Source: an uncultured Planctomycetales bacterium (GTDB lineage: Bacteria; Omnitrophota; Gorgyraeia; Gygaellales; Profunditerraquicolaceae). From it: 64,000 nt of DNA. Every line of letters starts with the position of its first letter. Within the stretch, counting starts at the first letter, position 1. The DNA is taken from NCBI GenBank assembly GCA_964545575.1, contig CAZJFL010000009.1:19574-83573 (forward strand). Direction: 5' to 3'. Under the pieces are notes generated by a model that saw only the letters and a list, made by a program, of their open reading frames with translations, did no database searches and had not been told where the DNA came from. This document shows, piece after piece, positions 13,374-36,258 of this stretch. Made by a program: the position numbers and the translations under genes.

Positions 13374-13420
13374 CCCCGCCCTTCATTCAAATATAATATA
13401 GCATTGGATGAAGAGCGGGG

Positions 13421-13449
13421 TTGACCTGCGATATTTTCAGTGGTATAAT
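13421..13449 (+). promoter_or_regulatory. Sigma70-type promoter: TTGACC, a 17-nt spacer, then TATAAT. The -10 ends 9 nt before the nadE ATG, so the transcript would be leaderless or nearly so.
   Basis: The -35 box is at 13421-13426 and the -10 box at 13444-13449. Both are consensus-quality, with an optimal spacer. Confidence 0.6.
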
Positions 13450-13458
13450 TCCAAAGAT

Positions 13459-14175: not shown

Positions 14176-14190
14176 AAACCGGAGGTAAAG

Positions 14191-14676: not shown

Positions 14677-14717
14677 ATCCTAAATCCGAAATTCGAATTT
14701 AACTTCTAAAAACAGAT

Positions 14718-17218: not shown

Positions 17219-17229
17219 GGTTAAAGGCT

Positions 17230-17955: not shown

Positions 17956-17960
17956 TCCCG

Positions 17961-18656: not shown

Positions 18657-20046
18657 AATTAGCAATAGGCAAAGCAAAGGCAGGCAGGAAGAGTTGCGGG
18701 ATTTAGAAGCGAAATTCTGTTCCTGGGGGGATACCGTGCATTATGCCAAGAACCCCAAAATATTTTCCCGCGCCGAGGGGTGCTATCTTTATGACCGGGA
18801 GGGCGTTGCGTATTTAGACCTGCAGATGTGGTATTCGGCGGCCAATTTTGGCTATAAGAACAACAGGTTAAATCAGGCGCTGAAAGACCAGATCGATGAG
18901 CTTCCGCAGCTTGCCTGTCAGTACCTCCATGAAGAAAAGATTGCACTCGCCGCCAAGATCGCCCAGCGCATAGAATTGACTTTTGAGGAAAAAGGAAGGG
19001 TGCATTTTAATGTCGGCGGTTCCGCGGCGGTGGAAGATTCCTTAAAATTAGTCCGCAACCATACGGGCAAGAACCTGGTCTTTGCCTTTATGGGCGGTTA
19101 TCACGGAAGGACCTTGGGCGCCTCCGCCATTACCTCCAGTTACCGCTACAGGGAAAAGTTCGGGCATTTTTCAGACCGGGCGCATTTTATTCCCTACCCC
19201 TATTGTTTCCGCTGCCCTTACGGAAAAAGAAAAGAATCCTGCGAATTGTATTGCCTGAAACAATTCGAGCGCCTTTTTGAGAGCGAGTATTATTCGGTAT
19301 TAAACACCAAGACCAACAAATGCGAATTCGGGGCTTTCTATATAGAGGCGGTGCAGGGGACAGGCGGCTACATCATCCCTCCGCGCGAATATTTTTCCAA
19401 ATTAAAAGAGATACTGGATAGATATAATATACTCCTGGTGGATGATGAAGTTCAGATGGGATTTTTCCGGACCGGAAAGTTCTGGGCGATAGAACACTTT
19501 GATGTGGTGCCCGATATTATCGTATTCGGTAAAGCCCTTACCAACGGCCTTAACCCGCTTTCGGGGATCTGGGCTAAAGAGAATCTTATTTCTCCCGAAG
19601 CATTCCCTGCCGGATCTACCCATTCCACATTTTCTGCTAATCCTCTGGGCACAGCCGTAGGTCTGGAAACGATGAAACTGATAGAAGAATCAAAGTTCGC
19701 CGCAGAAATACCCGAGAAGGGAGAGTATCTGGTATCCAGATTTAAAAATCTGCAGAAGAAATACCGCCAGATAGGGGATGTCGACGGGTTGGGCCTGGCC
19801 TTAAGGATAGAAATCTGTTATGAAGACGGCTTTACCCCCAATAAAGAACTGACCGACGCCATAACCGATATCGGCCTTGAGGGAAAACTTTCTTATCAAG
19901 GCAAAAAGATGGGATTAGTCTTGGATGTCGGCGGCTACTATAAAAACGTCTTTACCATTGCGCCCTCATTCTATATTTCAAAGGAAGAAATGGATCTTGC
20001 CGTTGAACTCTTCGAAAAGGCTTTGCAGCTTGCGCTTAAAATTTAA
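18634..20046 (+). CDS. Class III PLP-dependent aminotransferase
   Basis: 470 aa with GGYHGRT, DEVQMGFFRTG, FGKAL and THSTFSANP motifs. Confidence 0.75.
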   Translation: MVRKEKVKISNRQSKGRQEELRDLEAKFCSWGDTVHYAKNPKIFSRAEGCYLYDREGVAYLDLQMWYSAANFGYKNNRLNQALKDQIDELPQLACQYLHEEKIALAAKIAQRIELTFEEKGRVHFNVGGSAAVEDSLKLVRNHTGKNLVFAFMGGYHGRTLGASAITSSYRYREKFGHFSDRAHFIPYPYCFRCPYGKRKESCELYCLKQFERLFESEYYSVLNTKTNKCEFGAFYIEAVQGTGGYIIPPREYFSKLKEILDRYNILLVDDEVQMGFFRTGKFWAIEHFDVVPDIIVFGKALTNGLNPLSGIWAKENLISPEAFPAGSTHSTFSANPLGTAVGLETMKLIEESKFAAEIPEKGEYLVSRFKNLQKKYRQIGDVDGLGLALRIEICYEDGFTPNKELTDAITDIGLEGKLSYQGKKMGLVLDVGGYYKNVFTIAPSFYISKEEMDLAVELFEKALQLALKI

Positions 20047-21346: not shown

Positions 21347-21825
21347 GAATGCGCATCCCTCTTTTCCCGGCTGCTAAAGGAAACGGATATTACCCCCAGG
21401 ATTATAAAAAATATACCGCCCCACCTTAACCAGGTGACCTTTTCTTTTAAGAATACTATAGAGACCAGCGGCACAAGGATGTAACTAAAACTTGCTATGG
21501 GAACGGCAATGCTTAAGTCAATTTTGGAAAGAACGCTTGACCAGATAATAAATAATATGAATACCGCCACAAAGGCTGACCAGAGAAACAGGGAAAAAAA
21601 GTTTAGCTTAAAGAATAGCGCGAGGGTAGAGAAAGACTTTATTTCTATGCCACTTCCTGACAGCGCGCTCTTTTTAAAGCAGAACTGCGCGACGGTCTCC
21701 AGGATATCCGTAGATATCAGCAAGAGGAGAATTTTTGGGGTCAGTTTATTTTTAGACATTTTGGCTTGATTGGTAAAGTATTCTATCATAAAATAAGCCG
21801 CAAGAGTAAGAAAAAATGAGCGCAT
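21343..21825 (-). CDS. EamA/DMT-family transporter, N-terminal half
   Basis: 160 aa with multiple transmembrane segments. It is paired with 20963-21346. Confidence 0.5.
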   Translation of the reverse strand: MRSFFLTLAAYFMIEYFTNQAKMSKNKLTPKILLLLISTDILETVAQFCFKKSALSGSGIEIKSFSTLALFFKLNFFSLFLWSAFVAVFILFIIWSSVLSKIDLSIAVPIASFSYILVPLVSIVFLKEKVTWLRWGGIFFIILGVISVSFSSREKRDAHS

Positions 21826-21882
21826 CGCTAGCGTAAAAACCGTTGCTGCCGGTTAGGTCTTATGGTAAAATAAACCTTTACG

Positions 21883-22287
21883 ATGACTATTCTTAAGAAG
21901 ATACCTTCCAGCTTAGAGCTAGTCCACGGATTTATTTCCCGTTTTATGAAAGAAATAAGGATCCTTTCCTTGGGGCATAATGATATTTTTGATATAAAAT
22001 TGTCTCTGGAGGAAGCCCTGGTTAATGCCATAAAGCACGGCAATAAAATGGATCCCGGGGCGTTGGTAGAATTCCGGGCCGATATTGAAGACGGCAAACT
22101 GACCATGGAAGTGACAAACGCAGGCCCCGGTTTTGATTACCAGAGCATTCCCGACCCCACGGCGCTGGATAAATTGCAAAGGACTTCCGGCCGGGGGATA
22201 TTTTTGATTAAAAAGCTGATGGATAGGGTGGAGTTTTCTGATTGCGGGCGCACCATAAAAATGATAAAATTTATACATAAGGTTTAA
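21883..22287 (+). CDS. Anti-sigma-factor-type serine kinase (RsbW/SpoIIAB-like HATPase_c)
   Basis: It has the EEALVNAIKHGN (N-box) and TNAGPGFD (G-box) motifs. Confidence 0.75.
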   Translation: MTILKKIPSSLELVHGFISRFMKEIRILSLGHNDIFDIKLSLEEALVNAIKHGNKMDPGALVEFRADIEDGKLTMEVTNAGPGFDYQSIPDPTALDKLQRTSGRGIFLIKKLMDRVEFSDCGRTIKMIKFIHKV

Positions 22288-22427
22288 CACCCAATCTTAT
22301 AGGATAGATTGGTGTGCACTTACTGTGTAACACCCAAACATATAGGATTGTTTGGTATACACTAACTGTGTTAACGCCCGAACATATATGATTGTTCGGC
22401 GTACGCTTACTGCGTAAGGAGCTAAAA
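22286..22427 (+). repeat. Three tandem copies of a ~45-nt structured unit, with the unit boundaries falling at 22286-22328, 22329-22372 and 22373-22420. Each unit reads AAC-R-CCC, then a 7-bp stem, a TATNNGAT loop, the stem complement, and a small hairpin with a TTACT-type pentaloop. The last unit ends in AAGGAG, which serves as the ribosome-binding site for the STAS gene.
   Basis: The stem sequences differ between units but stay complementary: ccaatct/agattgg, ccaaaca/tgtttgg, ccgaaca/tgttcgg. Confidence 0.7.
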
Positions 22428-22760
22428 ATGAAGATAGCCCAAGAGAAACACAATGATGTAGTCGTCTGCATATTAGACGGCGAGATCGATATCAATACTT
22501 CTCCTGAATTAAGAAAGGCCTGCGAGGTGCTCAGCAAAAATAACGAGAAGAAGGTGCTCATGGATTTATCCGGAGTTACCTATATCGATAGCTCAGGGCT
22601 GGCTACGCTTATTGAGATGTTCCAGCGCCTTAAAAAGATAGGCGGGCGCCTGCGTTTAAGCAATTTAAACGAAAAAGTCAGGAATGTTTTTGAGATCACC
22701 AAGCTTTACAAATTATTCGAGATTTTCGATACGCGCGACAGCGCATTAAGGGAATTTTAA
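22428..22760 (+). CDS. STAS-domain protein (anti-sigma-factor antagonist RsbV/SpoIIAA-like; MlaB-like position)
   Basis: It has a DLSGVTYIDSSGL phosphorylatable-serine region. The 22392 start in the ORF track only translates the upstream repeat, so the true start is the ATG at 22428. Confidence 0.75.
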   Translation: MKIAQEKHNDVVVCILDGEIDINTSPELRKACEVLSKNNEKKVLMDLSGVTYIDSSGLATLIEMFQRLKKIGGRLRLSNLNEKVRNVFEITKLYKLFEIFDTRDSALREF

Positions 22761-23548
22761 TGATCTGGCGCTTAGGAAAACTAGTCATTGATACCGTAAA
22801 GGGTATCGTTGGGGTATTTGGCCTTTTTTTTAATATCCTCTACTGGATATTTATCGGGCCGTTCAAAGGAAAATTCTCCCGGCGCCAGAGCATTTTCCAT
22901 CAGATGGTTTTTGTGGGCCTAAGTTCTATGCTGATAGTCTTTTTCGTCTCGATATTTACCGGCGTAGTGCTGGCAATGCAGTCTGCTTATCAGCTGGAAA
23001 AGATGGGGGCGGTTTTGTATGTCGCATCGCTAGTAGCGATTTCATTATGCCGCGAATTAAGCCCGGTGCTGACTGCGCTGGTAGTCGCCGGAAGGGTGGG
23101 TTCGGCATTCGCCGCGGAGTTAGGCACGATGAAAGTGAGCGAACAGATAGAAGCGCTGGATACCATGGCCATAAATCCGGTGCGTTTTCTGGCCGTGCCG
23201 AGGTTCCTGGCCTTATTTTTCATGCTGCCCTGCCTTACGGCGCTGGCAGACCTTTCGGGTATTTTAGGCGGGTATCTGGTGGGGACGAACAGCCTGGAAA
23301 TTAACCCGGATTTATACATGCAGACTACTTTTAAATACCTGGAATTGAAGGATATCAATACCGGGCTGCTAAAGGCTTTTGTCTTTGCTATCATCATCGC
23401 CCTGATCGGTTGTTACGAGGGCTTAAATACCAAAGGCGGCGCCGAAGGCGTAGGCAAGGCAACTACTAAAAGCGTCGTCACAAGCTTCATCCTGATAATC
23501 CTGGCTGACTGCGTCCTGACAGCCATATTTTATTTCTCCAAAGTATAA
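22760..23548 (+). CDS. mlaE: MlaE-family ABC transporter permease
   Basis: 262 aa with the polytopic MlaE/Ttg2B pattern. It is followed by mlaF and mlaD. Confidence 0.8.
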   Translation: MIWRLGKLVIDTVKGIVGVFGLFFNILYWIFIGPFKGKFSRRQSIFHQMVFVGLSSMLIVFFVSIFTGVVLAMQSAYQLEKMGAVLYVASLVAISLCRELSPVLTALVVAGRVGSAFAAELGTMKVSEQIEALDTMAINPVRFLAVPRFLALFFMLPCLTALADLSGILGGYLVGTNSLEINPDLYMQTTFKYLELKDINTGLLKAFVFAIIIALIGCYEGLNTKGGAEGVGKATTKSVVTSFILIILADCVLTAIFYFSKV

Positions 23549-24351
23549 TGCAAAACGAAAAAGAAGTGGTAATTTCGCTAAAGAACGTCTCCAAGTCTTT
23601 TCAGGGGAAAAAAATCATTAACAACGTCAGCTTTGATATTTTAAGGGGGGAAACCTTTGTGATTATGGGCTGCTCCGGTTCGGGCAAGAGCACCTTGCTT
23701 AGATTAATGAACGGCGCAATCAAACCGGATGAAGGCAGCATTTTTATCAAGGGTAAAGACATCACCCAGATATCTTCAGAAGGGCTGGATGAGGTTAAAA
23801 TTAGCTTCGGGATGCTTTTTCAGTATTCGGCTTTATTGGATTCTTTAAGCGTCGAGGAAAATGTAGCCCTGCCCTTAAGGGAACATACGAAATTGGCCGA
23901 GGATATCATCGGCATAATTATCAAGATGAAGCTTTCTCTGGTAGGCCTGCGCGGGTTCGAGAAACATTATCCTGCGCAGATCTCCGGAGGCATGCGTAAG
24001 CGCGTCGGCCTTGCCCGCGCCATCGCCCTTGACCCGGATATTGTCTTTTATGACGAGCCTACTTCCGGGCTTGACCCCGTAGTCGGAGGGGTAATCGATA
24101 AATTGATCAAAGATTTAAGCTCGAAGCTCTTGATTACTTCCGTAGTGGTCACCCACGATATGCAGAGCGTCTTTAATATTGCCGATAAGGTGGCCATGGT
24201 GCATAAGGGGGAACTGGTGGAGGTGGATACTCCCGAGAGGATCAAGGCCTCCCCCAATCCCTACATTCAGCAGTTTATTCACGGCAGCCCCGTTGGCCCG
24301 ATAGATTTCTTTAAGGAAGATATAGGAATAATAGAAGCGTTAGGTTTATAG
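23548..24351 (+). CDS. mlaF: MlaF-family ABC transporter ATP-binding protein
   Basis: It has Walker A (GCSGSGKST), LSGGMRKR and Walker B (FYDEPTSGLD) motifs. Confidence 0.85.
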   Translation: MQNEKEVVISLKNVSKSFQGKKIINNVSFDILRGETFVIMGCSGSGKSTLLRLMNGAIKPDEGSIFIKGKDITQISSEGLDEVKISFGMLFQYSALLDSLSVEENVALPLREHTKLAEDIIGIIIKMKLSLVGLRGFEKHYPAQISGGMRKRVGLARAIALDPDIVFYDEPTSGLDPVVGGVIDKLIKDLSSKLLITSVVVTHDMQSVFNIADKVAMVHKGELVEVDTPERIKASPNPYIQQFIHGSPVGPIDFFKEDIGIIEALGL

Positions 24352-24363
24352 CGAGGTGAGAAA

Positions 24364-25005
24364 ATGAAAAAATACGGCAATGAGTTTAAGGTCGGCTTAT
24401 TTGTTATTCTCTGCGTGTGCATATTTTTTTATCTTATTTATAGCACCGGTAAGCTTAATATCAAAAAGGAGGGTTATTATATTTATGTCGTCTTCGATGA
24501 TATCGCCGGTTTAAGCAAAAAAGCGCCGGTGATGTTAAACGGCATAGAAATAGGCAAAGTTGACAGCATGAAATTTGCCTACGATAATGAGCAGACCAAG
24601 ATTATGCTTAAGCTGTGGCTCGGTATAGATGCCAAGGTCAGGGATAATCCCGTAGTTTCGATTAAGACTTTGGGGCTGATGGGGGAAAAATACATCCAGA
24701 TAGCTTCTGTCCAGGGAGGCGGGTTTATCGCCCCTGAAACAATCCTCGCCGGCAAGTCCTACAAGGATTTAGATACCCTGACAGACCAGGCTGAGATTAT
24801 CACTAAAAACGTAGACAGCCTGGTCCTGGAGTTGAAAAAACTGGCCGCAAACCTTAACTATACCGTAGACGGCAATAAAGATAAGATTTCCCAGACTATT
24901 GCCAATTTAGAGGCAGCCTCCAAGAACTTCGAGGAGTTTAGCGACGATATTAAGCGGCACCCCTGGAAGCTACTTTTTAAAGGCAAAGAGGCTAAAACTA
25001 AATAA
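24364..25005 (+). CDS. mlaD: MlaD-family MCE-domain protein
   Basis: It has an N-terminal transmembrane segment followed by an MCE domain. Confidence 0.75.
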   Translation: MKKYGNEFKVGLFVILCVCIFFYLIYSTGKLNIKKEGYYIYVVFDDIAGLSKKAPVMLNGIEIGKVDSMKFAYDNEQTKIMLKLWLGIDAKVRDNPVVSIKTLGLMGEKYIQIASVQGGGFIAPETILAGKSYKDLDTLTDQAEIITKNVDSLVLELKKLAANLNYTVDGNKDKISQTIANLEAASKNFEEFSDDIKRHPWKLLFKGKEAKTK

Positions 25006-25018
25006 AGGGAGGGTAAAG

Positions 25019-25786
25019 ATGAAAAGGGCTTTTAATTTTTTAGTTTTTACGGCAGTAGTATTATTATTTTCCTCTTCTGTTTTTGCCCAGAGCGTAAAGA
25101 TCGTTGATTTAAAAGGCAAGGTCTTGGTTAAAAAAGAGCCTTCCGCTGATTGGCAGAAGGCTAAGGTCAATATGCTTCTTGAGAGCAGCGCAGAAATTAA
25201 GACGGATAAAAAAGCTATCTGCACCCTGGCGTTCGACGAAGAATTAAAAAATATCATGACCATAAAAGAAAATTCACAGGTAAAATTAGAGAGTATTGTT
25301 CCGGCGCAGGTCTTTCTTCCCGAAGGAAGGGTGTTTTCTTTGATTGAGAATTTATCGGCGATCGAAAAATTTGAAGTCCGCACCCCCACTGCCATCGCCG
25401 GCGCCCGCGGTACGGGTTTTTCAGTGGAAAGCCTGAACGGCCAAACATTAGCCTCATGCTATAAAGACTTTGTTTATGTTATGGGCTTGGATAAACAGGG
25501 TAATACCGGAGAGGCTAAGGAATTAGCGGAAAAGTTCGGTATTACTATAAACCCGGATGGTTCCTGGGATGGCCCTTTTGGCTTAAGCCCGGAGGCGATG
25601 AAAGAATGGCAGGATTTTATAGGTTATTTGGAAAGTTTAAGAGGCGATGGGCAGGATGAAGGAGATTCTTTGCAGGGCTTGCAGGATGAGAGTAAAGAAT
25701 CCCTCGGGGACAGCCTCTATCAGAATCGTCGGGCAGAAGAAGAGGGCAGGGAGCCGCCGGGAGATGGAACAGGAGACGGGCTTTGA
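25019..25786 (+). CDS. Secreted FecR-domain-like protein
   Basis: It has a signal peptide and a FecR-like beta-rich domain. It sits adjacent to a CHASE2 sensor, which is a recurrent pairing. Confidence 0.4.
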   Translation: MKRAFNFLVFTAVVLLFSSSVFAQSVKIVDLKGKVLVKKEPSADWQKAKVNMLLESSAEIKTDKKAICTLAFDEELKNIMTIKENSQVKLESIVPAQVFLPEGRVFSLIENLSAIEKFEVRTPTAIAGARGTGFSVESLNGQTLASCYKDFVYVMGLDKQGNTGEAKELAEKFGITINPDGSWDGPFGLSPEAMKEWQDFIGYLESLRGDGQDEGDSLQGLQDESKESLGDSLYQNRRAEEEGREPPGDGTGDGL

Positions 25787-25829
25787 TAACCGCCCGGTTA
25801 ATTTTATTGTAACGAAAAGGGGGAGCACG

Positions 25830-26837
25830 ATGAAGCATCTACTATTTTCAAGAAGTACGATAATTTTCGCAGCCTGTTTTTTGATTACCGGCAGCGCATT
25901 CGCTCAAGCCCAAGTTAGGGAAGAAAAAGAGGAGCGCCGCCTGCAACAGGTTCCGCTGGAGAAGAAATTCCTTCCGCCGGGATTAACCGCCAAAGCTTCG
26001 GTATTTGCCGGATATGACAGCAACGTAAACTTAAGCCCCTTAAAAAAAGGCGATATTTTTGAGGAGTTTTTATTTAATTTAGGTTACGGTAAACGGCTGC
26101 TGAATAAGCTGCGTTTCAGTTTTAACTATGATTTAGACGTATTGAACTATAACGAAATCACCAGCGCCTCGACTATCTTAAACCACCTGCGCTTCGGGCT
26201 GCACGATAAAATATCGATTTTTAAGGTCGGCGCAGGGTATGATTTGGCGATAGTCTATTTCAGGAATAACGACGATGATTTCTTTTTCCACAAAGGGTTC
26301 GCCTATATCGGCCAGGACCTCACCAGAAAAATCTACCACCAAGTACAGTTTGAATACGGGCTCAAAGCTTACACCGATCAAAAAGCGCTTGCCGGCGCTA
26401 TCGCCACTTATCAGGATAAGGATCGAGTTGACAGAAGATACAGCGGTATTTATAGCCTCGACTTTGCCTTGACCCCTAAGCTTAGTATGGGGTTTTTAAC
26501 CAGGTTTTCCGCTAATGAATCTAATACTATGTATCAGAGATTCTACGATTTCAAGTCCTATCAGGGTTCTCCATACTTAAGTTATTCTTTTACCAAAAAG
26601 CTGCAGGGATTGGTAAATTTTTCCTATACCCGCAAGAACTACGATAAGCGCCGGGTGACACTGGGGACGGATAAAGAAAAGGATAACTTTTACGTGGCCA
26701 GGACCGGTATCAGGTACGCTTTGAACAAAAATAATTCCCTAGCCTTGTCTTATACCTACCGCGATAACTCTTCCAATGATGACCTGGAAGAATATATGGA
26801 GAACGTATTCAGCGCAAGCTGGCAGTATAAGTTTTAG
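25830..26837 (+). CDS. Outer-membrane beta-barrel protein
   Basis: It has a signal peptide (MKHLLFSRSTIIFAACFLITGSAFAQA), alternating beta-strand pattern and a C-terminal F. The 25647 start in the ORF track overlaps the previous gene and is rejected. Confidence 0.6.
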   Translation: MKHLLFSRSTIIFAACFLITGSAFAQAQVREEKEERRLQQVPLEKKFLPPGLTAKASVFAGYDSNVNLSPLKKGDIFEEFLFNLGYGKRLLNKLRFSFNYDLDVLNYNEITSASTILNHLRFGLHDKISIFKVGAGYDLAIVYFRNNDDDFFFHKGFAYIGQDLTRKIYHQVQFEYGLKAYTDQKALAGAIATYQDKDRVDRRYSGIYSLDFALTPKLSMGFLTRFSANESNTMYQRFYDFKSYQGSPYLSYSFTKKLQGLVNFSYTRKNYDKRRVTLGTDKEKDNFYVARTGIRYALNKNNSLALSYTYRDNSSNDDLEEYMENVFSASWQYKF

Positions 26838-26849
26838 CGGGTGGGTTAG

Positions 26850-28760
26850 TTGAAAAAAAATACTTTAGGCCTCTGGATATTTTCCTGCCTCATTTTTTCC
26901 ATTCTTACCTTTTCTTATCTTAGGGTATTTAATAATTTCGAGTTGGCAACTTACGATTTAAGGTTCAAGATCAGGCCGCCGTTATCGGTGTCTTCCGATA
27001 TAGTCCTTATCGAAATATCCGATGACACTTTAAAAAACTTAGGCAAATGGCCGCTGCCGCGCGATTTTCACGCCAGTTTAATCCGGGTCTTAAGCGAATA
27101 CCAAGCACGGGAAATAGTCTTTGATATCCTCTTTAGCGAGCCCACCCTTTACGACGAAATATTTTCTCAGGCTGTCCGGGATGCCGCAAATGTTTATTTT
27201 CCTTTGGCGTTTTATCTTAACCCCCGGCTGAATAATAAATATCTTTCCGCTTCAAGCGATAAGATCCTCGGCGGTTTATGCCCGAGCCTCCAAACATACG
27301 CCGCAGGCAGTGGCCAGATCAATACCTTCGTAGATAACGACGGGAAAATCAGAAGGATACCCTTATGCATCCGCTATAACAATTCCCTATTCCCCAACTT
27401 AGGCCTTCTGGCCGCCTGCAAATCGTTGGGGCTTAACCCCGGCAAGTTAGAGTTTAAAAAAAGCAAGGTCATCATTGACCGAAGGCTCTCTCTGCCGGTC
27501 GGCCCCAATGCCTCTTTCCTGGTTAATTATCCGGATAAATGGCAGAAGTCGTTTTTACACCTTTCTTATTTTGAGGTGCTTAAGTCATACAGCGATATGA
27601 AAAAGGGCCTCAGGCCAAAAATAGATTTATCCCTGCTTAAAGATAAGGTCTGTTTCGTAGGGCTCACCGCCACCGGAACCTCTGATTTAAGGGCGACGCC
27701 TTTAGAGAATATCTATCCGATGCTGGGCTTACAGGCAAGCGTTTTTAATAGCGTAATTCAGCGCAAGTTTATCACAGATGCTGGCCCCCTTGCCAATACC
27801 GCGATCAATATCTTTATTTTCCTGCTTAGCTTTATCATCTGTATCCGCTTCAGGCCGTTAGTATCTTTTTTACTGAGTTTAACTGCGGCAATACTTTATT
27901 TTTCAGGCGCCACAGCCTTATTTATATCCAGCGGCTTATGGATAGATTTATATTTGCCTCTCTTGATTATTTTTCTCGCCTACGTCGGTTCCCTGCTTTA
28001 CAGGTTTCTGGACGAATTAAGGAAGAGGGAGCTTATAGAGAAAGAACTGGATATTGCCCGCACCATACAGAACAGTTTCTTGCCGCAGGAACTGGAGGAA
28101 TTCGCCGGCATCCGGATTCATGCCTTTATGCAGCCGGCCAAGTTCGTAGCCGGGGATTTATACGATATCGTGGCTATGGATGATAAGCGGCTGGGTGTTC
28201 TTATCGGAGACGTTTCGGGAAAAGGGGTACCGGCTGCGCTGATTATGGCCCAGACCATATCCCTATTTAGGGTTTTTTCCCGGCAATACCCGGATTGTTC
28301 TGAGGTCCTGAAGAGGATAAATAAGGAGCTCTGCGGTAAATTTGCCGGGAGGTTTGTCACCGCGCTGTATATGCTGATAGATACACAGAAGCATAGCGTG
28401 CGGGTTTCCTCGGCAGGGCAGGCGCCGCTATTGCATTTTATCGGGGGCCAGGGAAAGATCCGGGAAGTAGATTTACCTCAGGACCTGCCTTTAGGCATTA
28501 TGGAGGGGGCAGAGTATCTTGAGGCGATATTTAACATAGAAGAACTAGATAAACTCATTGTTTTTACCGACGGGGTGCAGGAGGCGCGTAATAAAGGCGG
28601 AGAAGAGTTCGGGATAGATAAGATCAAAAAGATAATTCTGGATAATCCCCGCCTTAAACCGGATGAATTGGCCGCGGTTATCAGAGAGAGCATCTTACGG
28701 TTTTCCCGCTCCTGCCCGCAGCACGACGATATTACCCTGATTATATTGGGAGGGTCTTAA
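26850..28760 (+). CDS. Membrane sensor with an N-terminal CHASE2 domain and a C-terminal PP2C/SpoIIE-type serine phosphatase (RsbU-like)
   Basis: It has a CHASE2 periplasmic domain (LIEISDDTLKNLGKWPLPRDFHASLI), transmembrane segments, and the PP2C motifs GDLYD, GDVSGKG and FTDGVQEA. Confidence 0.75.
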   Translation: MKKNTLGLWIFSCLIFSILTFSYLRVFNNFELATYDLRFKIRPPLSVSSDIVLIEISDDTLKNLGKWPLPRDFHASLIRVLSEYQAREIVFDILFSEPTLYDEIFSQAVRDAANVYFPLAFYLNPRLNNKYLSASSDKILGGLCPSLQTYAAGSGQINTFVDNDGKIRRIPLCIRYNNSLFPNLGLLAACKSLGLNPGKLEFKKSKVIIDRRLSLPVGPNASFLVNYPDKWQKSFLHLSYFEVLKSYSDMKKGLRPKIDLSLLKDKVCFVGLTATGTSDLRATPLENIYPMLGLQASVFNSVIQRKFITDAGPLANTAINIFIFLLSFIICIRFRPLVSFLLSLTAAILYFSGATALFISSGLWIDLYLPLLIIFLAYVGSLLYRFLDELRKRELIEKELDIARTIQNSFLPQELEEFAGIRIHAFMQPAKFVAGDLYDIVAMDDKRLGVLIGDVSGKGVPAALIMAQTISLFRVFSRQYPDCSEVLKRINKELCGKFAGRFVTALYMLIDTQKHSVRVSSAGQAPLLHFIGGQGKIREVDLPQDLPLGIMEGAEYLEAIFNIEELDKLIVFTDGVQEARNKGGEEFGIDKIKKIILDNPRLKPDELAAVIRESILRFSRSCPQHDDITLIILGGS

Positions 28761-28818
28761 TAAAAGCTATTGCTTAAAATACGGTATTGTGTTAAAATTT
28801 ACTTTATAAGCATAGAAT

Positions 28819-28957
28819 AACACCCGGCCTTATACCCACCCCACCATATCGGAGTGATGGGTACGCCGCCTTCTGCGGCGGGATAGGCCGGTGTGCGCTT
28901 GCTGTCTAACACCCAATCTTATCGGATATATTGGTGTGCGCTTGCTGCGCAAGGAGG
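28819..28957 (+). repeat. Two copies of the same structured unit family. The first unit (28819-28907) carries a nested insertion inside its TATNNGAT loop, and that insertion itself resembles a mini-unit. The second unit (28908-28957) ends in AAGGAGG before the ATG at 28964.
   Basis: Seen in sequence. The outer stem cacccggcc/ggccggtgtg encloses ttata[insert]ggata. Confidence 0.65.
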
Positions 28958-28963
28958 CTAAAG

Positions 28964-29302
28964 ATGGAAAAAAAGGATTTAGGCAAGACTTCGACCGGCA
29001 TGCAGGCTAATGTGGCGGCACTCTTAAGCTATCTCTTGGGGTTCGTCACCGGGATTATTTTCTATCTCATTGAAAAAGATAACAAGTTCGTAAGATTCCA
29101 TGCCATGCAGTCGATTGTGACGTTTGGCGCCCTCTTTATCTTAGGGTTCGTCTTTGCAGTGATACCCGTGATCGGCTGGAGCCTGATGCCGGTTTTGTGG
29201 ATAGTGGAAGTAGTCCTTTGGATACTGCTGATGATCAAGGCTTATCAGGGAGAACTTTTTAAGCTTCCTGTTGCCGGAGATATAGCAGAGAAGAATTCCT
29301 GA
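28964..29302 (+). CDS. Small membrane protein (DUF4870-like, 3 TM)
   Basis: 112 aa with three transmembrane helices. The 28931 start in the ORF track translates the repeat. The AAGGAGG at 28951-28957 supports the 28964 start. Confidence 0.5.
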   Translation: MEKKDLGKTSTGMQANVAALLSYLLGFVTGIIFYLIEKDNKFVRFHAMQSIVTFGALFILGFVFAVIPVIGWSLMPVLWIVEVVLWILLMIKAYQGELFKLPVAGDIAEKNS

Positions 29303-29405
29303 TCATAAAAAGGGGCCTGCCGATAAAAATTATTGACAAAAGATTTTTTTATATTATCATCTATTTAATATAAATAGGGTATAGAAAAGATAGGAGTGGA
29401 AGACA

Positions 29406-29448
29406 AAGACGTCTGGAATTCTTGCAGGACGTCTTTTCTTTTTTAAAG
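29406..29448 (+). terminator. Terminator-like hairpin (aagacgtc, 14-nt loop, gacgtctt) plus a U-run, abutting the ATG at 29449 with no Shine-Dalgarno; possible attenuator
   Basis: Seen in sequence. Confidence 0.4.
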
Positions 29449-30288
29449 ATGAAAATATTGCATAAAGAAATTCTAGGTCAAACGCAGGATACCAGGCTTA
29501 CTAAAATAGAGGTGAGCGCGCCTGATATTGCTGCTTCTGCCTCACCCGGCCAGTTTGCGGTGTTGATGGTCAGTGAAGAAGGGGAAAGAATACCTCTGAC
29601 TATCGTGGATTGCGATAAAAATAAAGGCATAATTACTTTTATCTTTCAGGAGGCAGGCCTGACCACTAAGCTTTTAGGCAAATTAAATCAAGGGGATTCG
29701 CTGTATGCTTTGGCCGGCCCCTTAGGCCATCCTACTGAGATTAAAAATTACGGGCAAGTTATTTTAGTAGGCGGGGGGGTGGGTATTGCCGAATTATACC
29801 CCGTAGCTAAAGCTTTAAAGGGGGCAGGTAATCAGGTAGTGACCATATTGGGGGCGCGGACTAAAGAATTATTGATCCTGGAAAAAGAATTAAAGAGCGT
29901 GTCTAGTGAATTACACATTACTACCGATGACGGCTCTTACGGCAGAAAGGGTTTTACTACTGATGTCTTAAAAGAATTACTAAACAACGAACAACGAACT
30001 ATGAACTATGAACTAGTGTATGCGGTAGGTCCCATTCCGATGATGCGTAAGTGCGCTGCAGCGACCCAAGAATTCAAGGTAAAAACTTTAGTTTCTTTAA
30101 ATGCCCTGATGGTGGATGCCACGGGTATGTGCGGCTGCTGCCGGGTAGAAGTAGGCGGGAAAACCAAATTTAGCTGCGTGGACGGCCCTGAATTCGACGG
30201 CCATTTAGTGGATTGGGACGGTCTGACCAAAAGAAATGCCGTATATCTGGAACAAGAAAAACATATCTGTAACTTGATGCCTAAATGA
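29449..30288 (+). CDS. FAD/NAD(P)-binding oxidoreductase with a C-terminal 2Fe-2S site (NfnA / sulfide dehydrogenase beta / PyrK-like electron-transfer subunit)
   Basis: It has an FNR-like FAD/NAD fold and the C-terminal CGCCRVEVGGKTKFSCVDGPEF cysteine cluster. It is paired with the GltD-family gene that follows. Confidence 0.65.
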   Translation: MKILHKEILGQTQDTRLTKIEVSAPDIAASASPGQFAVLMVSEEGERIPLTIVDCDKNKGIITFIFQEAGLTTKLLGKLNQGDSLYALAGPLGHPTEIKNYGQVILVGGGVGIAELYPVAKALKGAGNQVVTILGARTKELLILEKELKSVSSELHITTDDGSYGRKGFTTDVLKELLNNEQRTMNYELVYAVGPIPMMRKCAAATQEFKVKTLVSLNALMVDATGMCGCCRVEVGGKTKFSCVDGPEFDGHLVDWDGLTKRNAVYLEQEKHICNLMPK

Positions 30289-31703
30289 AAAAAGAACCGC
30301 TGGAAGCAAAAGAAAGAGACGTCTCGCAAAGGGTAAACAGCTTTGACGAGGTAGTCTTTGGTTATAGTGAGGAAGAAGCGTTGAGCGAAGCTAGCCGCTG
30401 CCTGCAGTGCAAAAACCCGGTCTGTATTTTGGGCTGTCCGGTCGGCATAGATATTAAGAAATTTATTTACCAGGTTTCCCAGAAGGATTACAAAGGTGCT
30501 TATTTTACTATCCGCCAAAAGAATGATTTTCCTTCGATCTGCGGCAGAGTTTGTCCGGCAGAGTACCAGTGCCGAAAGACTTGCATATTAACTAAAAAAG
30601 GTTCGCCCTTTGCCGCAAAAGAGGCGATAAATATCCATTTTTTGGAAAGGTTCGTAGGCGATTACGGAATGAGGAATAATCTATCAGTCCCCCCGGGAAA
30701 ATGCGCGGGCGCCGCAAAAATAAAAGTCGCGGTGGTGGGTTCCGGACCTGCCGGGATATGCTGCGCCGGAGAATTAGCGCGTAAAGGGATTAAGGTGGTC
30801 GTTTTTGAAAGTTTACATAAATTAGGCGGGGTTTTACGTTACGGGATTCCCCCTTTCAGGCTGCCGCGGGATATTCTGGATTATGAAATAGATTATTTAA
30901 AGAAGCTGGGGGTAGAATTCGTACCTAACTGTATTATAGGTAAGGCCAAGACCCTAGACGGGCTATTGAAAGAGGGTTTTGCTGCGGTATTCTTGGGTTT
31001 AGGCGCGGGTACGCCTTCATTTCTGGGAATACCGGGAGAAAATCTCTGTAATGTTTATTCTGCCAACGAGTTTTTAACCCGGGTAAACCTGATGTCTGCC
31101 TATGAGTTCCCCAAATTTCATACTCCGGTCAACATTGGAAAACATGCCATTGTGATCGGGGGGGGGAATACGGCTATGGATGCAGCCAGAGTAGCTTTGC
31201 GCCTGCAAAAGATGAACGGACTTGCCCCGGACACCACCATTCTTTACCGGCGTTCGGAAGTAGAGATGCCGGCGAGAAGACTGGAGATAGAGCATGCTAA
31301 AGAAGAGGGGATTAAATTTAAACTTTTGGTTAAACCGGAAGAGTTTTATGCAGACAAAAACGGCTTTGTGCAGAAAATAAGATGTCTGGAGTGCCGGCTT
31401 GGCGAACCGGACAGTTCAGGCAGAAGAAAACCTATTCCTGTGCCGGGGAGTGATTTTAAAATGCCTTGCGATTTAGCGATTATTGCTGTAGGATTACAGG
31501 CAAATCAGATTTTGACTAAAGCCACCCCGGAAATCAAAGTAGATGAATGGGCAGATGTGGTAGTGGATCCGGAAACTATGGAGACTTCAGTAAAAAAAGT
31601 TTTTGCAGGAGGTGATATTGTCGGAGGAGAAGGAACGGTAATTGAGGCTATGGGGATGGCCAAAAAAGCCGCAGAGGCTATATTAAAATCGTGCTCGGCG
31701 TGA
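30285..31703 (+). CDS. GltD-family NAD(P)H-dependent FAD/Fe-S oxidoreductase (NfnB / archaeal-type glutamate synthase small-chain-like)
   Basis: 472 aa with an N-terminal 4Fe-4S cysteine pattern (CLQCKNPVCILGCPV) and two GxGxxG Rossmann motifs (VVGSGPAG, VIGGGNTAMD). Confidence 0.7.
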   Translation: MKKEPLEAKERDVSQRVNSFDEVVFGYSEEEALSEASRCLQCKNPVCILGCPVGIDIKKFIYQVSQKDYKGAYFTIRQKNDFPSICGRVCPAEYQCRKTCILTKKGSPFAAKEAINIHFLERFVGDYGMRNNLSVPPGKCAGAAKIKVAVVGSGPAGICCAGELARKGIKVVVFESLHKLGGVLRYGIPPFRLPRDILDYEIDYLKKLGVEFVPNCIIGKAKTLDGLLKEGFAAVFLGLGAGTPSFLGIPGENLCNVYSANEFLTRVNLMSAYEFPKFHTPVNIGKHAIVIGGGNTAMDAARVALRLQKMNGLAPDTTILYRRSEVEMPARRLEIEHAKEEGIKFKLLVKPEEFYADKNGFVQKIRCLECRLGEPDSSGRRKPIPVPGSDFKMPCDLAIIAVGLQANQILTKATPEIKVDEWADVVVDPETMETSVKKVFAGGDIVGGEGTVIEAMGMAKKAAEAILKSCSA

Positions 31704-31732
31704 GAGCGCAAGAAATAAAACTAAGTTAGTTA

Positions 31733-31826
31733 AGCGCCCGAACATATATGATTGTTCGGCGTGCGCTTACTGCGCTAACGCCCGAACATATCTGATTGTT
31801 CGGCGTGCGCTTACTGCGCAAGGAGG
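31733..31826 (+). repeat. Two tandem copies of the structured unit (31733-31776, 31777-31826). The second ends in AAGGAGG before the gdhA ATG at 31832.
   Basis: They are near-identical to the third unit at 22373-22420 (gcccgaaca, loop, tgttcggc, then gcgcttactgcgc). Confidence 0.7.
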
Positions 31827-31831
31827 ATAGG

Positions 31832-33169
31832 ATGTCAAAAAAGGTGGAAGAGTTTATGAGCAAGGTAGCGGCAAGAAATCCGGGAGAGCCGGAATTTCAT
31901 CAGGCAGTGCGCGAAGTTGTAGAGTCAGTAATGCCTTTTATTGAAGAGAACCCGAAATACCAAAAAGCCAAAATATTAGAAAGAATAGTGGAGCCGGAGC
32001 GCGTATTGATGTTTCGCGTTCCCTGGTTTGACGACAAAGGAGAGATTCAGGTAAACCGCGGCTACCGTATAGAAATGAGTAGCGCCATCGGCCCCTACAA
32101 AGGCGGTTTGCGTTTCCATCCTACCGTGACTTTAAGTATTTTAAAATTTTTGGCTTTTGAGCAGGTGTTTAAGAATAGCCTTACCACCCTGCCCATGGGC
32201 GGCGGCAAGGGCGGTTCGGATTTTGACCCCAAAGGTAAATCCGATAATGAGGTGATGCGTTTCTGCCAGAGTTTTATGACCGAATTGCAAAGGCATATCG
32301 GCCCGGATACGGATGTGCCTGCCGGAGATATCGGCGTAGGCGGACGCGAAATCGGATTTTTGTTCGGACAATATAAGAGGCTGCGTAATGAGTTTAGCGG
32401 CGTGCTTACCGGCAAAGGCCTGAACTGGGGCGGAAGCTTGATCCGTCCGGAAGCCACTGGTTACGGCTGTGTTTATTTTGTCCAGGAGATGCTTAAAACA
32501 AAAGGCGAGTCGTTAAAAGGAAAAGTCTGCGCTGTTTCCGGTTCCGGCAATGTCGCCCAGTACACCGTAGAAAAGCTTCTGGATTTAGGGGCAAAGGTGG
32601 TGACTTTGTCAGACTCCAACGGTTACATTTACGATAAAGGCGGCATTGATAAGAAGGAACTGACTTGCGTGATGGATCTGAAAAATATCAAGCGCGGCCG
32701 GATCAAGGAATGTGCTAAGGAATTCAACTGCGAATATTTCGAGAATAAGAATCCCTGGAGCGTAAAATGTGACATAGCTTTCCCTAGCGCTACGCAAAAC
32801 GAGATAGACGAAAACGATGCTAAGATGCTGGTGAAAAACGGCTGTATTGCGGTAGGGGAAGGCGCGAACATGCCTACTACGCCTGAAGGTGTAGAGGTTT
32901 TTCAAAAAGCAAAGATTCTCTACGCTCCCGGTAAGGCTTCTAACGCTGGAGGCGTGGCTACTTCGGGCTTGGAGATGTCTCAGAATAGCCAGAGGCTTTC
33001 CTGGACGCGCGAAGAGGTAGATAGAAGGCTGCATGACATCATGATCGCCATACATGAGCAGTGCGTCAAATACGGCAAGGAGGGTAATTATATCGATTAT
33101 GTCAAAGGCGCCAACATCGCCGGGTTTGTCAAGGTGGCCGATGCGATGATAGACCAGGGGTTAGTTTAG
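31832..33169 (+). CDS. gdhA: NADP-specific glutamate dehydrogenase
   Basis: It has the GDH hallmark FKNSLTTLPMGGGKGGSDFDPKGKSDNE and a GSGNVAQY Rossmann motif. The 31796 start only translates the repeat. Confidence 0.9.
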   Translation: MSKKVEEFMSKVAARNPGEPEFHQAVREVVESVMPFIEENPKYQKAKILERIVEPERVLMFRVPWFDDKGEIQVNRGYRIEMSSAIGPYKGGLRFHPTVTLSILKFLAFEQVFKNSLTTLPMGGGKGGSDFDPKGKSDNEVMRFCQSFMTELQRHIGPDTDVPAGDIGVGGREIGFLFGQYKRLRNEFSGVLTGKGLNWGGSLIRPEATGYGCVYFVQEMLKTKGESLKGKVCAVSGSGNVAQYTVEKLLDLGAKVVTLSDSNGYIYDKGGIDKKELTCVMDLKNIKRGRIKECAKEFNCEYFENKNPWSVKCDIAFPSATQNEIDENDAKMLVKNGCIAVGEGANMPTTPEGVEVFQKAKILYAPGKASNAGGVATSGLEMSQNSQRLSWTREEVDRRLHDIMIAIHEQCVKYGKEGNYIDYVKGANIAGFVKVADAMIDQGLV

Positions 33170-36164: not shown

Positions 36165-36258
36165 AATGAGGGCACAATTTACGGAGCATAAGCGACGTAA
36201 ATTGTATGCCCGAATTAATCCCGCACTTACGCATAAGTGCGGGATAAGAGGTAGGCAG

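What the first reader, a model, noticed from the sequence alone, without database searches (positions are those of the whole stretch)
21883..28760. Operon fusing a partner-switching module (RsbW-like kinase, STAS, CHASE2-PP2C phosphatase) with MlaE/F/D, a FecR-like protein and an outer-membrane barrel
The same-strand, tightly packed order is an HATPase_c anti-sigma-type kinase, a STAS protein with a conserved phosphorylatable Ser (DLSGVTYIDSSGL), MlaE, MlaF, MlaD, a secreted FecR-like protein, an outer-membrane beta-barrel, and a membrane CHASE2 sensor fused to a PP2C phosphatase. In canonical Mla systems a STAS protein (MlaB) binds and stabilises the ATPase MlaF. Here the STAS protein is bracketed by a cognate kinase and an environmentally gated phosphatase. 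This predicts that an extracytoplasmic signal sensed by CHASE2 toggles STAS phosphorylation and thereby the activity of the Mla-type lipid ABC transporter. It would be a signalling-to-transport coupling rather than the usual sigma-factor output. No sigma factor is present in the operon.
Basis: inference. Interest (0 to 1): 0.7.

Follow-up and report, generated by a model that had tools for sequence, protein, structure and literature searches.

The report
Phospho-switch genes wrapped around Mla lipid transporter
An uncultured Omnitrophota bacterium, like about three quarters of the related species sampled, has a kinase, a phosphorylatable STAS protein and a membrane sensor-phosphatase in one tightly packed gene cluster with an Mla-type lipid ABC transporter, which makes the open question of whether Mla transport is controlled by STAS phosphorylation directly testable.

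Summary
Window 21883-28760 (+) encodes, in order, eight genes:
- K: an RsbW-like HATPase_c_2 kinase
- S: a SpoIIAA-type STAS protein with the phospho-Ser (S55)
- MlaE, MlaF and MlaD
- R: a secreted FecR-domain protein
- B: a BBP2-type outer-membrane barrel
- P: a CHASE2-PP2C membrane phosphatase

The organism is Candidatus Omnitrophota. K-S-MlaE-MlaF-MlaD, followed by the phosphatase, recurs in 33 of 45 assessable species. K/S and S/MlaE usually abut or overlap.

- For it: the S type occurs wherever MlaEFD sits in the cluster. MlaF keeps the C-terminal extension that docks next to MlaB in E. coli. No sigma-factor gene is conserved nearby.
- Against it: S is by sequence and fold a kinase-regulated anti-sigma antagonist, not an MlaB orthologue. 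Orthologous K/P pairs occur without Mla but with other STAS genes in about 11 species. Distance-matrix covariation links S to K, not to MlaF. The window's own kinase has Asn in place of the adenine-binding Asp of the G1 box. An ECF-type sigma gene lies 7.4 kb downstream in this species only.

No S-MlaF contact could be tested. I rate this a new variant of known kinds, with about 0.45 confidence in phospho-gated transport.

The parts
21883..22287 (+). K: RsbW/SpoIIAB-like GHKL serine kinase, 134 aa. The N-box (E44, N48, H52, G53, N54) and G2 box (G103, R104, G105) are intact. The G1 box reads N79-A-G-P-G, with Asn where the consensus has Asp.
   Evidence: Pfam HATPase_c_2 92.8 bits. NCBIfam best hits are RsbW and SpoIIAB. 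PDB hits are RsbW 6m36 and SpoIIAB 1til. Motif census over 121 orthologues.
22284..22425 (.). Three tandem copies of a ~44-nt hairpin repeat fill the K-S spacer. The last copy runs into the AAGGAG Shine-Dalgarno sequence of the STAS gene.
   Evidence: Repeat finding. RNA fold z-score -4.6. No Rfam match. Present only in same-species contigs.
22428..22760 (+). S: single-domain STAS protein, 110 aa, of the SpoIIAA/RsbV type, with Ser55 at the N-cap of helix alpha2. It is the candidate phospho-substrate and the candidate MlaB-like partner of MlaF.
   Evidence: Pfam STAS 85.8 bits and TIGR00377 87.9 bits. AF2 pLDDT 95.6 with beta5 and alpha4 present. Foldseek top hits are TM1442, SpoIIAA and RsbV. 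YIDSSGLAT is invariant.
22760..23548 (+). MlaE-family ABC permease, 262 aa. Its start codon overlaps the STAS stop codon (TAATG).
   Evidence: Pfam MlaE 279 bits. TIGR00056 270.9 bits, above the cutoff of 212.
23548..24351 (+). MlaF-like ABC ATPase, 267 aa, with a conserved C-terminal extension (...QQFIHGSPVGPIDFFKEDIGIIEALGL).
   Evidence: Best solved relatives are the MlaF proteins of A. baumannii, P. aeruginosa and E. coli, aligned through residue 254. The tail is conserved in 37 species.
24364..25005 (+). MlaD-like protein, 213 aa: N-terminal membrane anchor, MCE domain, C-terminal helical region.
   Evidence: Pfam MlaD 62.6 bits; NCBIfam MCE and MlaD hits fall below the equivalog cutoffs. 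Hydrophobic stretch at residues 4-33.
25019..25786 (+). R: secreted FecR-domain protein, 255 aa, with a signal peptide and an acidic, Gly-rich tail.
   Evidence: Pfam FecR 33.7 bits; weak hits to Leptospira LipL45 and Lsa33. Signal peptide. R stays with K and P in loci that lack Mla.
25830..26837 (+). B: outer-membrane beta-barrel of the BBP2 family, 335 aa from ATG 25830. Public gene calls start at 25764 and give 357 aa.
   Evidence: BBP2_2 matched in 20 of 25 orthologues. Signal peptide and C-terminal aromatic Phe. No solved relative by sequence.
26850..28760 (+). P: membrane sensor-phosphatase, 636 aa. Predicted order: hydrophobic anchor, periplasmic CHASE2 domain, hydrophobic block (311-387), cytoplasmic PP2C (SpoIIE-type) domain with all metal-binding Asp motifs.
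   Evidence: Pfam CHASE2 160.7 bits and SpoIIE 151.2 bits. D436, D454, D574, D626 and D627 are invariant in 14 orthologues. Aligns to the SpoIIE phosphatase domain. Hydropathy.
28906..28960 (.). One more copy of the same hairpin repeat, just downstream of the phosphatase gene. With the copies at 22284-22425, the repeats bracket the S-to-P block.

Best explanation
This is a conserved Omnitrophota envelope module in which a serine-phosphorylation switch is built around an Mla-type lipid ABC transporter.

Proposed mechanism:
1. The CHASE2-PP2C protein P senses a periplasmic or outer-membrane cue. It probably does so together with the secreted FecR-like protein R and the outer-membrane barrel B.
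2. P dephosphorylates S~P.
3. Unphosphorylated S uses its helical face around Ser55 to bind MlaF, as MlaB does in E. coli, and so assembles or activates MlaFED.
4. The kinase K re-phosphorylates Ser55, and also competes for S, which switches the transporter off.

What is shown: the domain identities; the conserved catalytic and phospho-acceptor residues; the SpoIIAA-type fold of S; phylum-wide synteny with start/stop overlaps; and the strict co-occurrence of this S type with MlaEFD.

What is inferred: that K phosphorylates S and P dephosphorylates it (by homology); that S binds MlaF (from gene context, the E. coli precedent and the retained MlaF C-terminal extension); the direction of regulation; and the nature of the signal.
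For: - **Domains and residues:**
- **Synteny:** K-S-E-F-D, followed by P, in 33 of 45 assessable species; 25 of these carry the full K-S-E-F-D-R-B-P order, and the others lack R and/or B or duplicate R. The arrangement is spread over the whole phosphatase tree.
- **Gene spacing:** the median K-S gap is -1 nt and the median S-E gap is 0 nt over 33 loci.
- **Co-occurrence:** the S type (94-163 bits against the window S) sits directly upstream of MlaE in 33 of 33 assessable Mla loci. It is absent from 10 of 11 loci that lack Mla.
- **MlaF tail:** the C-terminal extension is conserved in 37 species, including a GDDYLxDL variant that, from my memory of the E. coli MlaF sequence (not checked here), resembles the handshake helix. 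In E. coli this helix docks in the groove between MlaB and MlaF, and the phosphomimetic T52E weakens MlaF binding (PMC7367683).
- **Conservation of S:** helices alpha1-alpha3 and the very C-terminal Phe110 are invariant or nearly so.
- **Related fusion:** a second Mla paralogue in L015 has a weak STAS_2-like N-terminal domain fused to MlaE.
- **No sigma link:** no sigma gene lies in the operon, and none recurs within about 10 kb in 55 species.
- **Sensor pairing:** FecR next to a CHASE2 sensor is a known recurring adjacency (PMC5192318).
Against: - S is not an MlaB orthologue by sequence (mlaB_1 33 bits against a cutoff of 90) or by fold (MlaB ranks 49th, TM 0.61; S has the beta5 and alpha4 elements that MlaB lacks).
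- Orthologous K and P work next to other STAS paralogues, without adjacent Mla genes, in about 11 species. Seven Mla-type loci also carry such a paralogue nearby.
- Distance-matrix partial correlations link S to K (0.385) and K to P (0.365), but not S to MlaF (0.09). This is a weak test with no significance estimate.
- The window's kinase has Asn79 at the adenine-binding Asp of the G1 box.
- No MlaC or MlaA was seen in the window or in the related loci.
- A prediction of the S-MlaF complex could not be run.
Confidence: 0.45

Rival explanations
1. This is an orthodox partner switch whose output lies elsewhere. S is an anti-anti-sigma-type antagonist, and dephosphorylated S captures K and so releases an unlinked target, such as a sigma factor or another regulator. 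The Mla genes are only co-transcribed because they belong to the same envelope response, and this MlaFED works without an MlaB.
For: S scores as an anti-sigma antagonist above the family cutoff and folds like SpoIIAA and RsbV. K is RsbW-like. K/P orthologues occur with other STAS genes and no Mla. S covaries with K rather than MlaF. The nearest kinase homologue outside Omnitrophota sits in a plain STAS-kinase pair. An ECF-type sigma gene lies 7.4 kb downstream in this window.
Against: No sigma gene lies in the operon or recurs near it in 55 species, and the window's sigma has no homologue in any related locus. From general knowledge, RsbW-type anti-sigmas normally target SigB/SigF-type sigmas rather than ECF sigmas. 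The S type travels strictly with MlaEFD and is translationally coupled to MlaE. The MlaF C-terminal extension is retained.
Confidence: 0.25
2. S is a constitutive MlaB-like subunit only. The real substrates of K and P are the divergent STAS paralogues (S') encoded elsewhere, and the position of S-MlaEFD between K and P is a frozen insertion with no regulatory meaning.
For: In Mla-less loci, K and P are followed by one or two S' genes that keep a Ser at the phospho-site position. Seven Mla loci also carry an S' or an S-like paralogue within 10 kb. E. coli MlaB also keeps a Thr at this position although no kinase for it is known (PMC7367683).
Against: K and S overlap or abut in most species (median gap -1 nt). 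S-K has the highest partial correlation of any pair involving S. S has the full kinase-regulated STAS fold, and its closest structural matches are SpoIIAA and RsbV solved in complex with their kinases. No S' lies in the 64-kb window.
Confidence: 0.15
3. Information flows the other way. The Mla transporter is the sensor: the conformational or ATPase state of MlaF sequesters or releases S, and this sets how much S is available to K and hence to K's other targets. P then provides a second, periplasmic input.
For: This uses the same context evidence as the main model. It is analogous to the release of RsbT from STAS proteins in stressosomes (general knowledge). The K/P pair clearly has other STAS partners in some species.
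Against: No downstream target can be identified, and nothing in the sequence indicates direction. It is less parsimonious than regulation of the transporter.
Confidence: 0.1

Closest known systems
E. coli / A. baumannii MlaFEDB, with the STAS subunit MlaB (PMC7367683, PMC5016091)
   Same: It has an MlaE permease, an MlaF ATPase with a C-terminal extension, an MlaD MCE protein and a small STAS protein encoded in the same operon. The STAS Ser/Thr (S55 here, T52 in MlaB) sits at the N-cap of helix alpha2. In E. coli this residue lies at the centre of the MlaF interface, and a phosphomimetic substitution weakens binding.
   Different: The STAS protein here is a full-length SpoIIAA-type protein, not the minimal MlaB. 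It is encoded upstream of MlaE rather than at the operon end. It is flanked by a cognate-looking kinase and a phosphatase. No MlaC or MlaA gene is linked. No kinase is known for E. coli MlaB.
RsbU-RsbV-RsbW and SpoIIE-SpoIIAA-SpoIIAB partner-switching modules of Bacillus
   Same: It has a GHKL serine kinase, a STAS substrate with the conserved Ser, and a PP2C phosphatase. S superposes on SpoIIAA and RsbV with TM 0.82-0.89.
   Different: No sigma factor is linked. The gene order is kinase, then STAS, then five envelope genes, then the phosphatase. The phosphatase input domain is a periplasmic CHASE2.
SiaABCD of Pseudomonas aeruginosa (PMC7647112, PMC8457831) and the HenR/STAS module of Anabaena (PMC13555669)
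   Same: These are partner-switch-like phospho-modules whose unphosphorylated carrier protein binds and activates an enzyme (a diguanylate cyclase or a glycosyltransferase) rather than freeing a sigma factor. SiaA is also a membrane PP2C sensor.
   Different: The proposed output here is an ABC transporter ATPase. The proteins are not orthologous: the SiaA model gives 28 bits against a cutoff of 700.
FecR-domain protein next to a CHASE2 sensor kinase (Burkholderia 'BiofilmReg' operon, PMC5192318)
   Same: A secreted FecR-domain protein is encoded next to a membrane sensor with a CHASE2 domain.
   Different: The output domain here is PP2C rather than a histidine kinase. The FecR protein lacks LysM. 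An outer-membrane barrel is co-encoded.

Membership tests
Partner-switching module (RsbW/SpoIIAB - RsbV/SpoIIAA - RsbU/SpoIIE) | GHKL kinase with an N-box, a G1 box (DxGxG) and a G2 box | tested here: inconclusive
   E44, N48, G53, N54, G81, G83, G103, R104 and G105 are invariant in 121 orthologues. The G1 Asp is present in 108 of 121, but it is Asn79 in the window's protein and in 11 other orthologues. Whether the Asn form still binds ATP cannot be decided from sequence.
Partner-switching module (RsbW/SpoIIAB - RsbV/SpoIIAA - RsbU/SpoIIE) | Single-domain STAS with a phosphorylatable Ser/Thr at the N-cap of helix alpha2 and the SpoIIAA-type fold | tested here: met
   S55 aligns with SpoIIAA S58. 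It is invariant in 35 species and in 64 homologues. The AF2 model has pLDDT 95.6 with beta5 and alpha4. Foldseek top hits are TM1442, SpoIIAA and RsbV.
Partner-switching module (RsbW/SpoIIAB - RsbV/SpoIIAA - RsbU/SpoIIE) | PP2C phosphatase with metal-binding Asp motifs | tested here: met
   SpoIIE domain 151.2 bits. D436, D454, D574, D626 and D627 are invariant. It aligns to the SpoIIE phosphatase structures.
Partner-switching module (RsbW/SpoIIAB - RsbV/SpoIIAA - RsbU/SpoIIE) | A linked sigma factor, or other partner, released by the kinase | tested here: not met
   None lies in the operon. The only sigma gene in the 64-kb window (36166-36786, TIGR02937 63.3 bits) is 7.4 kb away and has no homologue in 55 related loci. 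No recurrent sigma neighbour was found.
Partner-switching module (RsbW/SpoIIAB - RsbV/SpoIIAA - RsbU/SpoIIE) | Actual phosphorylation of the STAS by the kinase and its reversal by the phosphatase | not testable with these tools
   This needs biochemistry.
Mla (MlaFEDB + MlaC + MlaA) lipid transport system | MlaE permease, MlaF ATPase and MlaD MCE protein in one operon | tested here: met
   MlaE 279 bits, with TIGR00056 above its cutoff. The ATPase is closest to solved MlaF proteins. The MlaD domain gives 62.6 bits. The MlaF and MlaD equivalog cutoffs are not reached, so these are Mla-family proteins, not proven equivalogs.
Mla (MlaFEDB + MlaC + MlaA) lipid transport system | MlaB: a minimal STAS subunit (4 strands, 3 helices) that binds MlaF | tested here: not met
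   NCBIfam mlaB_1 gives 33.4 bits against a cutoff of 90. S has the extra beta5 and alpha4. E. coli MlaB ranks 49th, TM 0.61. MlaB proteins are less than 20% identical even between E. coli and A. baumannii, so this rules out orthology but not an MlaB-like role. Binding to MlaF could not be tested.
Mla (MlaFEDB + MlaC + MlaA) lipid transport system | MlaF C-terminal extension that docks at the MlaB-MlaF groove | tested here: met
   The alignment to solved MlaF proteins runs through residue 254. The tail is conserved in 37 species.
Mla (MlaFEDB + MlaC + MlaA) lipid transport system | Periplasmic MlaC and outer-membrane MlaA | tested here: not met
   Neither appears among the annotated genes of the window or among the recurrent neighbours in the related loci. 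The rest of the genome could not be searched.
CHASE2 sensor with a FecR-domain accessory protein | A secreted FecR-domain protein encoded next to a CHASE2 membrane sensor | tested here: met
   R and P are adjacent or near each other in most loci, including loci that lack Mla. The precedent is PMC5192318.

The most novel reading that the evidence does not exclude
A lipid ABC transporter acts as the output partner of a bacterial partner switch. One STAS protein shuttles between a serine kinase and the MlaF ATPase, and its Ser55 phosphorylation state is set by an outer-membrane barrel, FecR-like protein and CHASE2-PP2C sensing chain. Envelope status would then gate phospholipid trafficking post-translationally. 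This would be the first natural case of the MlaB phosphoregulation proposed for E. coli in 2020.
Probability: 0.4. Interest if true: 0.8.

Novelty: new variant of a known kind. Interest (0 to 1): 0.6.

Why it matters
How Mla transport is regulated after translation is an open question. The MlaFB structure paper (PMC7367683) suggested phosphorylation of the MlaB Thr, but no kinase or phosphatase is known.

Here evolution has placed a kinase, a phosphorylatable STAS protein and a signal-gated phosphatase in the same translationally coupled operon as MlaEFD, across a whole phylum. That gives a defined set of about eight proteins that could be reconstituted to test phospho-control of an ABC lipid transporter.

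It would also add an ABC transporter to the short list of non-sigma outputs of partner switches, and it would give CHASE2 and FecR-like proteins a concrete envelope-sensing role.

If the link proves to be co-expression only, the finding is an ordinary stress operon in an uncultured phylum.

Tried and rejected
- **Complex prediction:** No complex model exists.
- **Rfam:** a search of 21800-32000 at E <= 1 found nothing.
- **Promoter and terminator scans:** the promoter scan was at chance level and the terminator scan only about two standard deviations above its shuffles; neither defined operon boundaries.
- **Mirror-tree analysis:** distance-matrix correlations gave S-K, K-P and E-F signals but no S-MlaF signal. 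I treat this as weak, because only 26 taxa were used and the pairs are not independent.
- **Barrel protein against PDB:** the profile search found no relative.
- **Reaching beyond Omnitrophota:**
  - STAS and kinase homologue searches returned almost only Omnitrophota proteins.
  - The single non-Omnitrophota kinase hit sits in a plain STAS-kinase pair without Mla.
- **Hairpin repeats as a conserved regulatory RNA:** rejected, because the repeats exist only in this species.
- **R and B as MlaC/MlaA substitutes:** considered unlikely, because they stay with K and P in loci that lack Mla and are missing from 7-8 loci that have Mla.
- **Literature:** searches for partner switching with MlaF, for MlaB phosphorylation after 2020, and for STAS with MCE and a kinase found no prior description. 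The library holds only open-access papers.

Full report
**Observation**

Their domain assignments hold:

| Gene | Coordinates | Assignment |
|---|---|---|
| K | 21883-22287 | HATPase_c_2, 92.8 bits; best NCBIfam models RsbW and SpoIIAB |
| S | 22428-22760 | STAS, 85.8 bits; TIGR00377 anti-sigma antagonist 87.9 bits, above cutoff |
| E | 22760-23548 | MlaE, 279 bits |
| F | 23548-24351 | ABC ATPase; best model and best solved relatives are MlaF |
| D | 24364-25005 | MlaD/MCE |
| R | 25019-25786 | FecR domain with a signal peptide |
| B | 25830-26837 | BBP2-type outer-membrane barrel; signal peptide; C-terminal ...WQYKF; BBP2_2 in 20 of 25 orthologues |
| P | 26850-28760 | CHASE2 plus SpoIIE/PP2C; hydrophobic stretches at 4-27 and 311-387 |

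The S gene starts at ATG 22428, behind an AAGGAG. S/E and E/F share one base. Names attached to homologues place the organism in Candidatus Omnitrophota. The window also carries lpxB, so an outer membrane containing LPS is expected.

**Catalytic and acceptor residues**

- **S.** Ser55 aligns with the phospho-Ser of SpoIIAA, RsbV and TM1442 and with Thr52 of E. coli MlaB. The motif YIDSSGLAT is invariant in 35 species and in 64 homologues.
- **P.** The PP2C Asp motifs are invariant in 14 orthologues and align with the SpoIIE phosphatase structures.
- **K.** The N-box and G2 box are invariant in 121 orthologues. The G1-box Asp that contacts adenine in GHKL proteins is Asn79 in this window's protein and in 11 other orthologues, including close relatives that are 70-92% identical. 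Everything else in these Asn-bearing proteins stays conserved and the phosphatase remains intact, so I regard the protein as functional. Its kinase activity is not assured.

**Conservation of the cluster**

A scan of one genome per GTDB species with an alignment of the CHASE2-PP2C protein returned 55 Omnitrophota loci. I mapped the eight window proteins onto six-frame ORFs of these loci.
- K-S-E-F-D, followed by P, occurs in 33 of 45 assessable species.
- Of these, 25 carry the full K-S-E-F-D-R-B-P order. The others lack R and/or B, duplicate R, or, in one locus, have MlaE and MlaF in a single ORF.
- The median K-S gap is -1 nt and the median S-E gap is 0 nt.
- Mean pairwise identities are 37-70%, so this is selection on gene order, not recent common descent.
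- On a neighbour-joining tree of the phosphatase, the full arrangement is spread over all major branches.

**Variants that bear on the interpretation**

In 10 species K is followed directly by R, B and/or P with no Mla genes. One or two divergent STAS genes (S', 25-50 bits against S) then sit next to the cluster, mostly just after P. One species has K-S-P, and one has R-B-P with no K nearby. These variants fall in at least three clades. The S' proteins are genuine STAS proteins and keep a Ser at the phospho-site column. Seven Mla-type loci also carry an S' or an S-like paralogue within 10 kb.

Three conclusions follow.
- K plus P, often with R and B, is a signalling unit that can work with other STAS proteins.
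- The S type itself travels with MlaEFD: 33 of 33 assessable Mla loci have it, against 1 of 11 Mla-less loci.
- R and B belong with the sensor rather than with the transporter. A FecR-domain protein beside a CHASE2 sensor is a known recurring pair (PMC5192318).

**Is S an MlaB?**

S is not an MlaB by descent.
- NCBIfam mlaB_1 gives 33 bits against a cutoff of 90.
- PDB sequence hits to MlaB have E about 1e-4, against 1e-14 to 1e-12 for TM1442, SpoIIAA and RsbV.
- A confident AF2 model (pLDDT 95.6) has the fifth strand and fourth helix that the minimal MlaB lacks.
- Foldseek ranks SpoIIAA and RsbV, solved in complex with their kinases, at TM 0.82-0.89. E. coli MlaB ranks 49th at TM 0.61.

MlaB proteins diverge fast: they are less than 20% identical between E. 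coli and A. baumannii. Failing this membership test therefore does not exclude an MlaB-like role.

Points in favour of such a role:
- S co-occurs strictly with, and is translationally coupled to, MlaE.
- The MlaF C-terminal extension is retained in 37 species. In E. coli this extension inserts hydrophobic residues into the MlaB-MlaF groove.
- Helices alpha1-alpha3 and the terminal Phe110 of S are almost invariant.
- A second Mla paralogue in L015 has a weak STAS-like domain fused to MlaE.

Points not in favour:
- Partial correlations of distance matrices link S to K (0.385), K to P (0.365) and E to F (0.494), but S to F only 0.09. This is a weak test.
- I could not run a complex prediction.

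**Sigma factors**

The operon has none. One gene in the window, 36166-36786, first looked like a LuxR-type HTH protein. It is in fact a sigma-70/ECF-family sigma factor: TIGR02937 gives 63.3 bits against a cutoff of 42.9. It lies 7.4 kb downstream among nitrogen-assimilation genes. It has no homologue within about 10 kb of the cluster in any of the 55 other species. Clustering of all flanking ORFs found no recurrent sigma, MlaA or MlaC gene. The only recurrent neighbour is an ion-channel gene after P, in 13 loci.

**Mechanism**

The best-supported reading (about 0.45) has four steps.
1. P, with R and B, senses an envelope cue and dephosphorylates S~P.
2. Free S binds MlaF and activates or assembles MlaFED.
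3. K phosphorylates Ser55 and competes for S.
4. Phospho-S cannot bind MlaF, by analogy with MlaB T52E.

Rival explanations:
- An orthodox switch with an unlinked output and merely co-expressed Mla genes (0.25).
- S as a constitutive MlaB-like subunit, with K and P acting on S' (0.15).
- Reverse information flow, from the transporter to the switch (0.10).

**Comparison and novelty**

The parts are all known kinds: Mla, a partner switch, and a CHASE2/FecR sensor. Partner switches with enzyme outputs exist, for example SiaABCD (PMC7647112, PMC8457831) and an Anabaena module (PMC13555669). I could not find, in the searchable open-access literature, any description of a kinase/STAS/PP2C module embedded in an Mla operon. 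Phosphoregulation of MlaB is explicitly called an open question. I therefore classify the finding as a new variant of a known kind, conserved across a phylum, with interest 0.6. It is a strong and testable genomic hypothesis, but its central protein-protein contact is still untested.

Noticed in passing
window 22284-22425, 28906-28960, 31731-31829: A ~44-nt repeat family in which each unit forms a 7-bp hairpin plus a short second hairpin. It lies in 5' intergenic regions (before the STAS gene, a DUF4870 gene and gdhA), and the last unit always runs into the AAGGAG ribosome-binding site. Copies bracket the S-to-P block. There is no Rfam match, and the family is found only in same-species contigs. 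Two GAF-ANTAR regulators are encoded in the window (17230-17955, 33447-34187). Whether these dual hairpins are ANTAR targets was not tested.
   Followed up: partly
window 36166-36786: A 206-aa sigma-70/ECF-family sigma factor (TIGR02937 63.3 bits, above cutoff) that Pfam alone labels mainly as a GerE/LuxR HTH protein. It sits between a glutamate-synthase-like gene and amtB. It has no homologue near the cluster in 55 related species.
   Followed up: yes
L026, L027, L036, L037, L046, L050, L053, L056, L057, L042 (for example L036:9403-12664): Compact versions of the module without Mla genes: kinase, sometimes the FecR-like and barrel genes, the CHASE2-PP2C gene, then one or two divergent STAS genes of two subtypes (motifs YVSSLILASL and YISSMG).
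   Followed up: partly
L015:19768-21666: A second Mla-type permease and ATPase pair lies 8 kb downstream of the cluster. Its MlaE has a ~120-aa N-terminal extension with a weak STAS_2 match (21.6 bits, below cutoff), so it may be a STAS-MlaE fusion.
   Followed up: partly
L021:5642-7255: MlaE (truncated at profile position 182 of 212) and the ABC ATPase lie in a single 538-aa ORF. This is either a real fusion or an assembly frameshift.
   Followed up: no
L017:11880-12665 and 12 other loci: A ~260-aa protein with a K+-channel-type pore (Ion_trans_2, TVGYGD) directly follows the CHASE2-PP2C gene in 13 species. It is absent from the window, where a DUF4870 membrane protein (28931-29302) takes that position.
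   Followed up: partly
L060:3430-4878: An additional 483-aa PP2C (SpoIIE-domain) protein is encoded immediately upstream of the kinase gene in one species. It is a possible second input to the switch.
   Followed up: no
window 13408-20046 and 29422-52394: The cluster is embedded in a large nitrogen-assimilation neighbourhood. It includes two glutamine synthetases, glutamate dehydrogenase, what appear to be GOGAT subunits (the 1,515-aa ORF at 40598-45145 was not scanned), amtB, carbamoyl-phosphate synthase, CTP synthase, an AsnC regulator and two paralogous GAF-ANTAR regulators that share a 60-nt stretch at 78% identity.
   Followed up: no
window 5537-5746: Two ~93-nt direct repeats, 75% identical and 117 nt apart, lie inside a small 79-aa ORF that has no Pfam match. 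The ORF appears to be an internally duplicated small protein.
   Followed up: no
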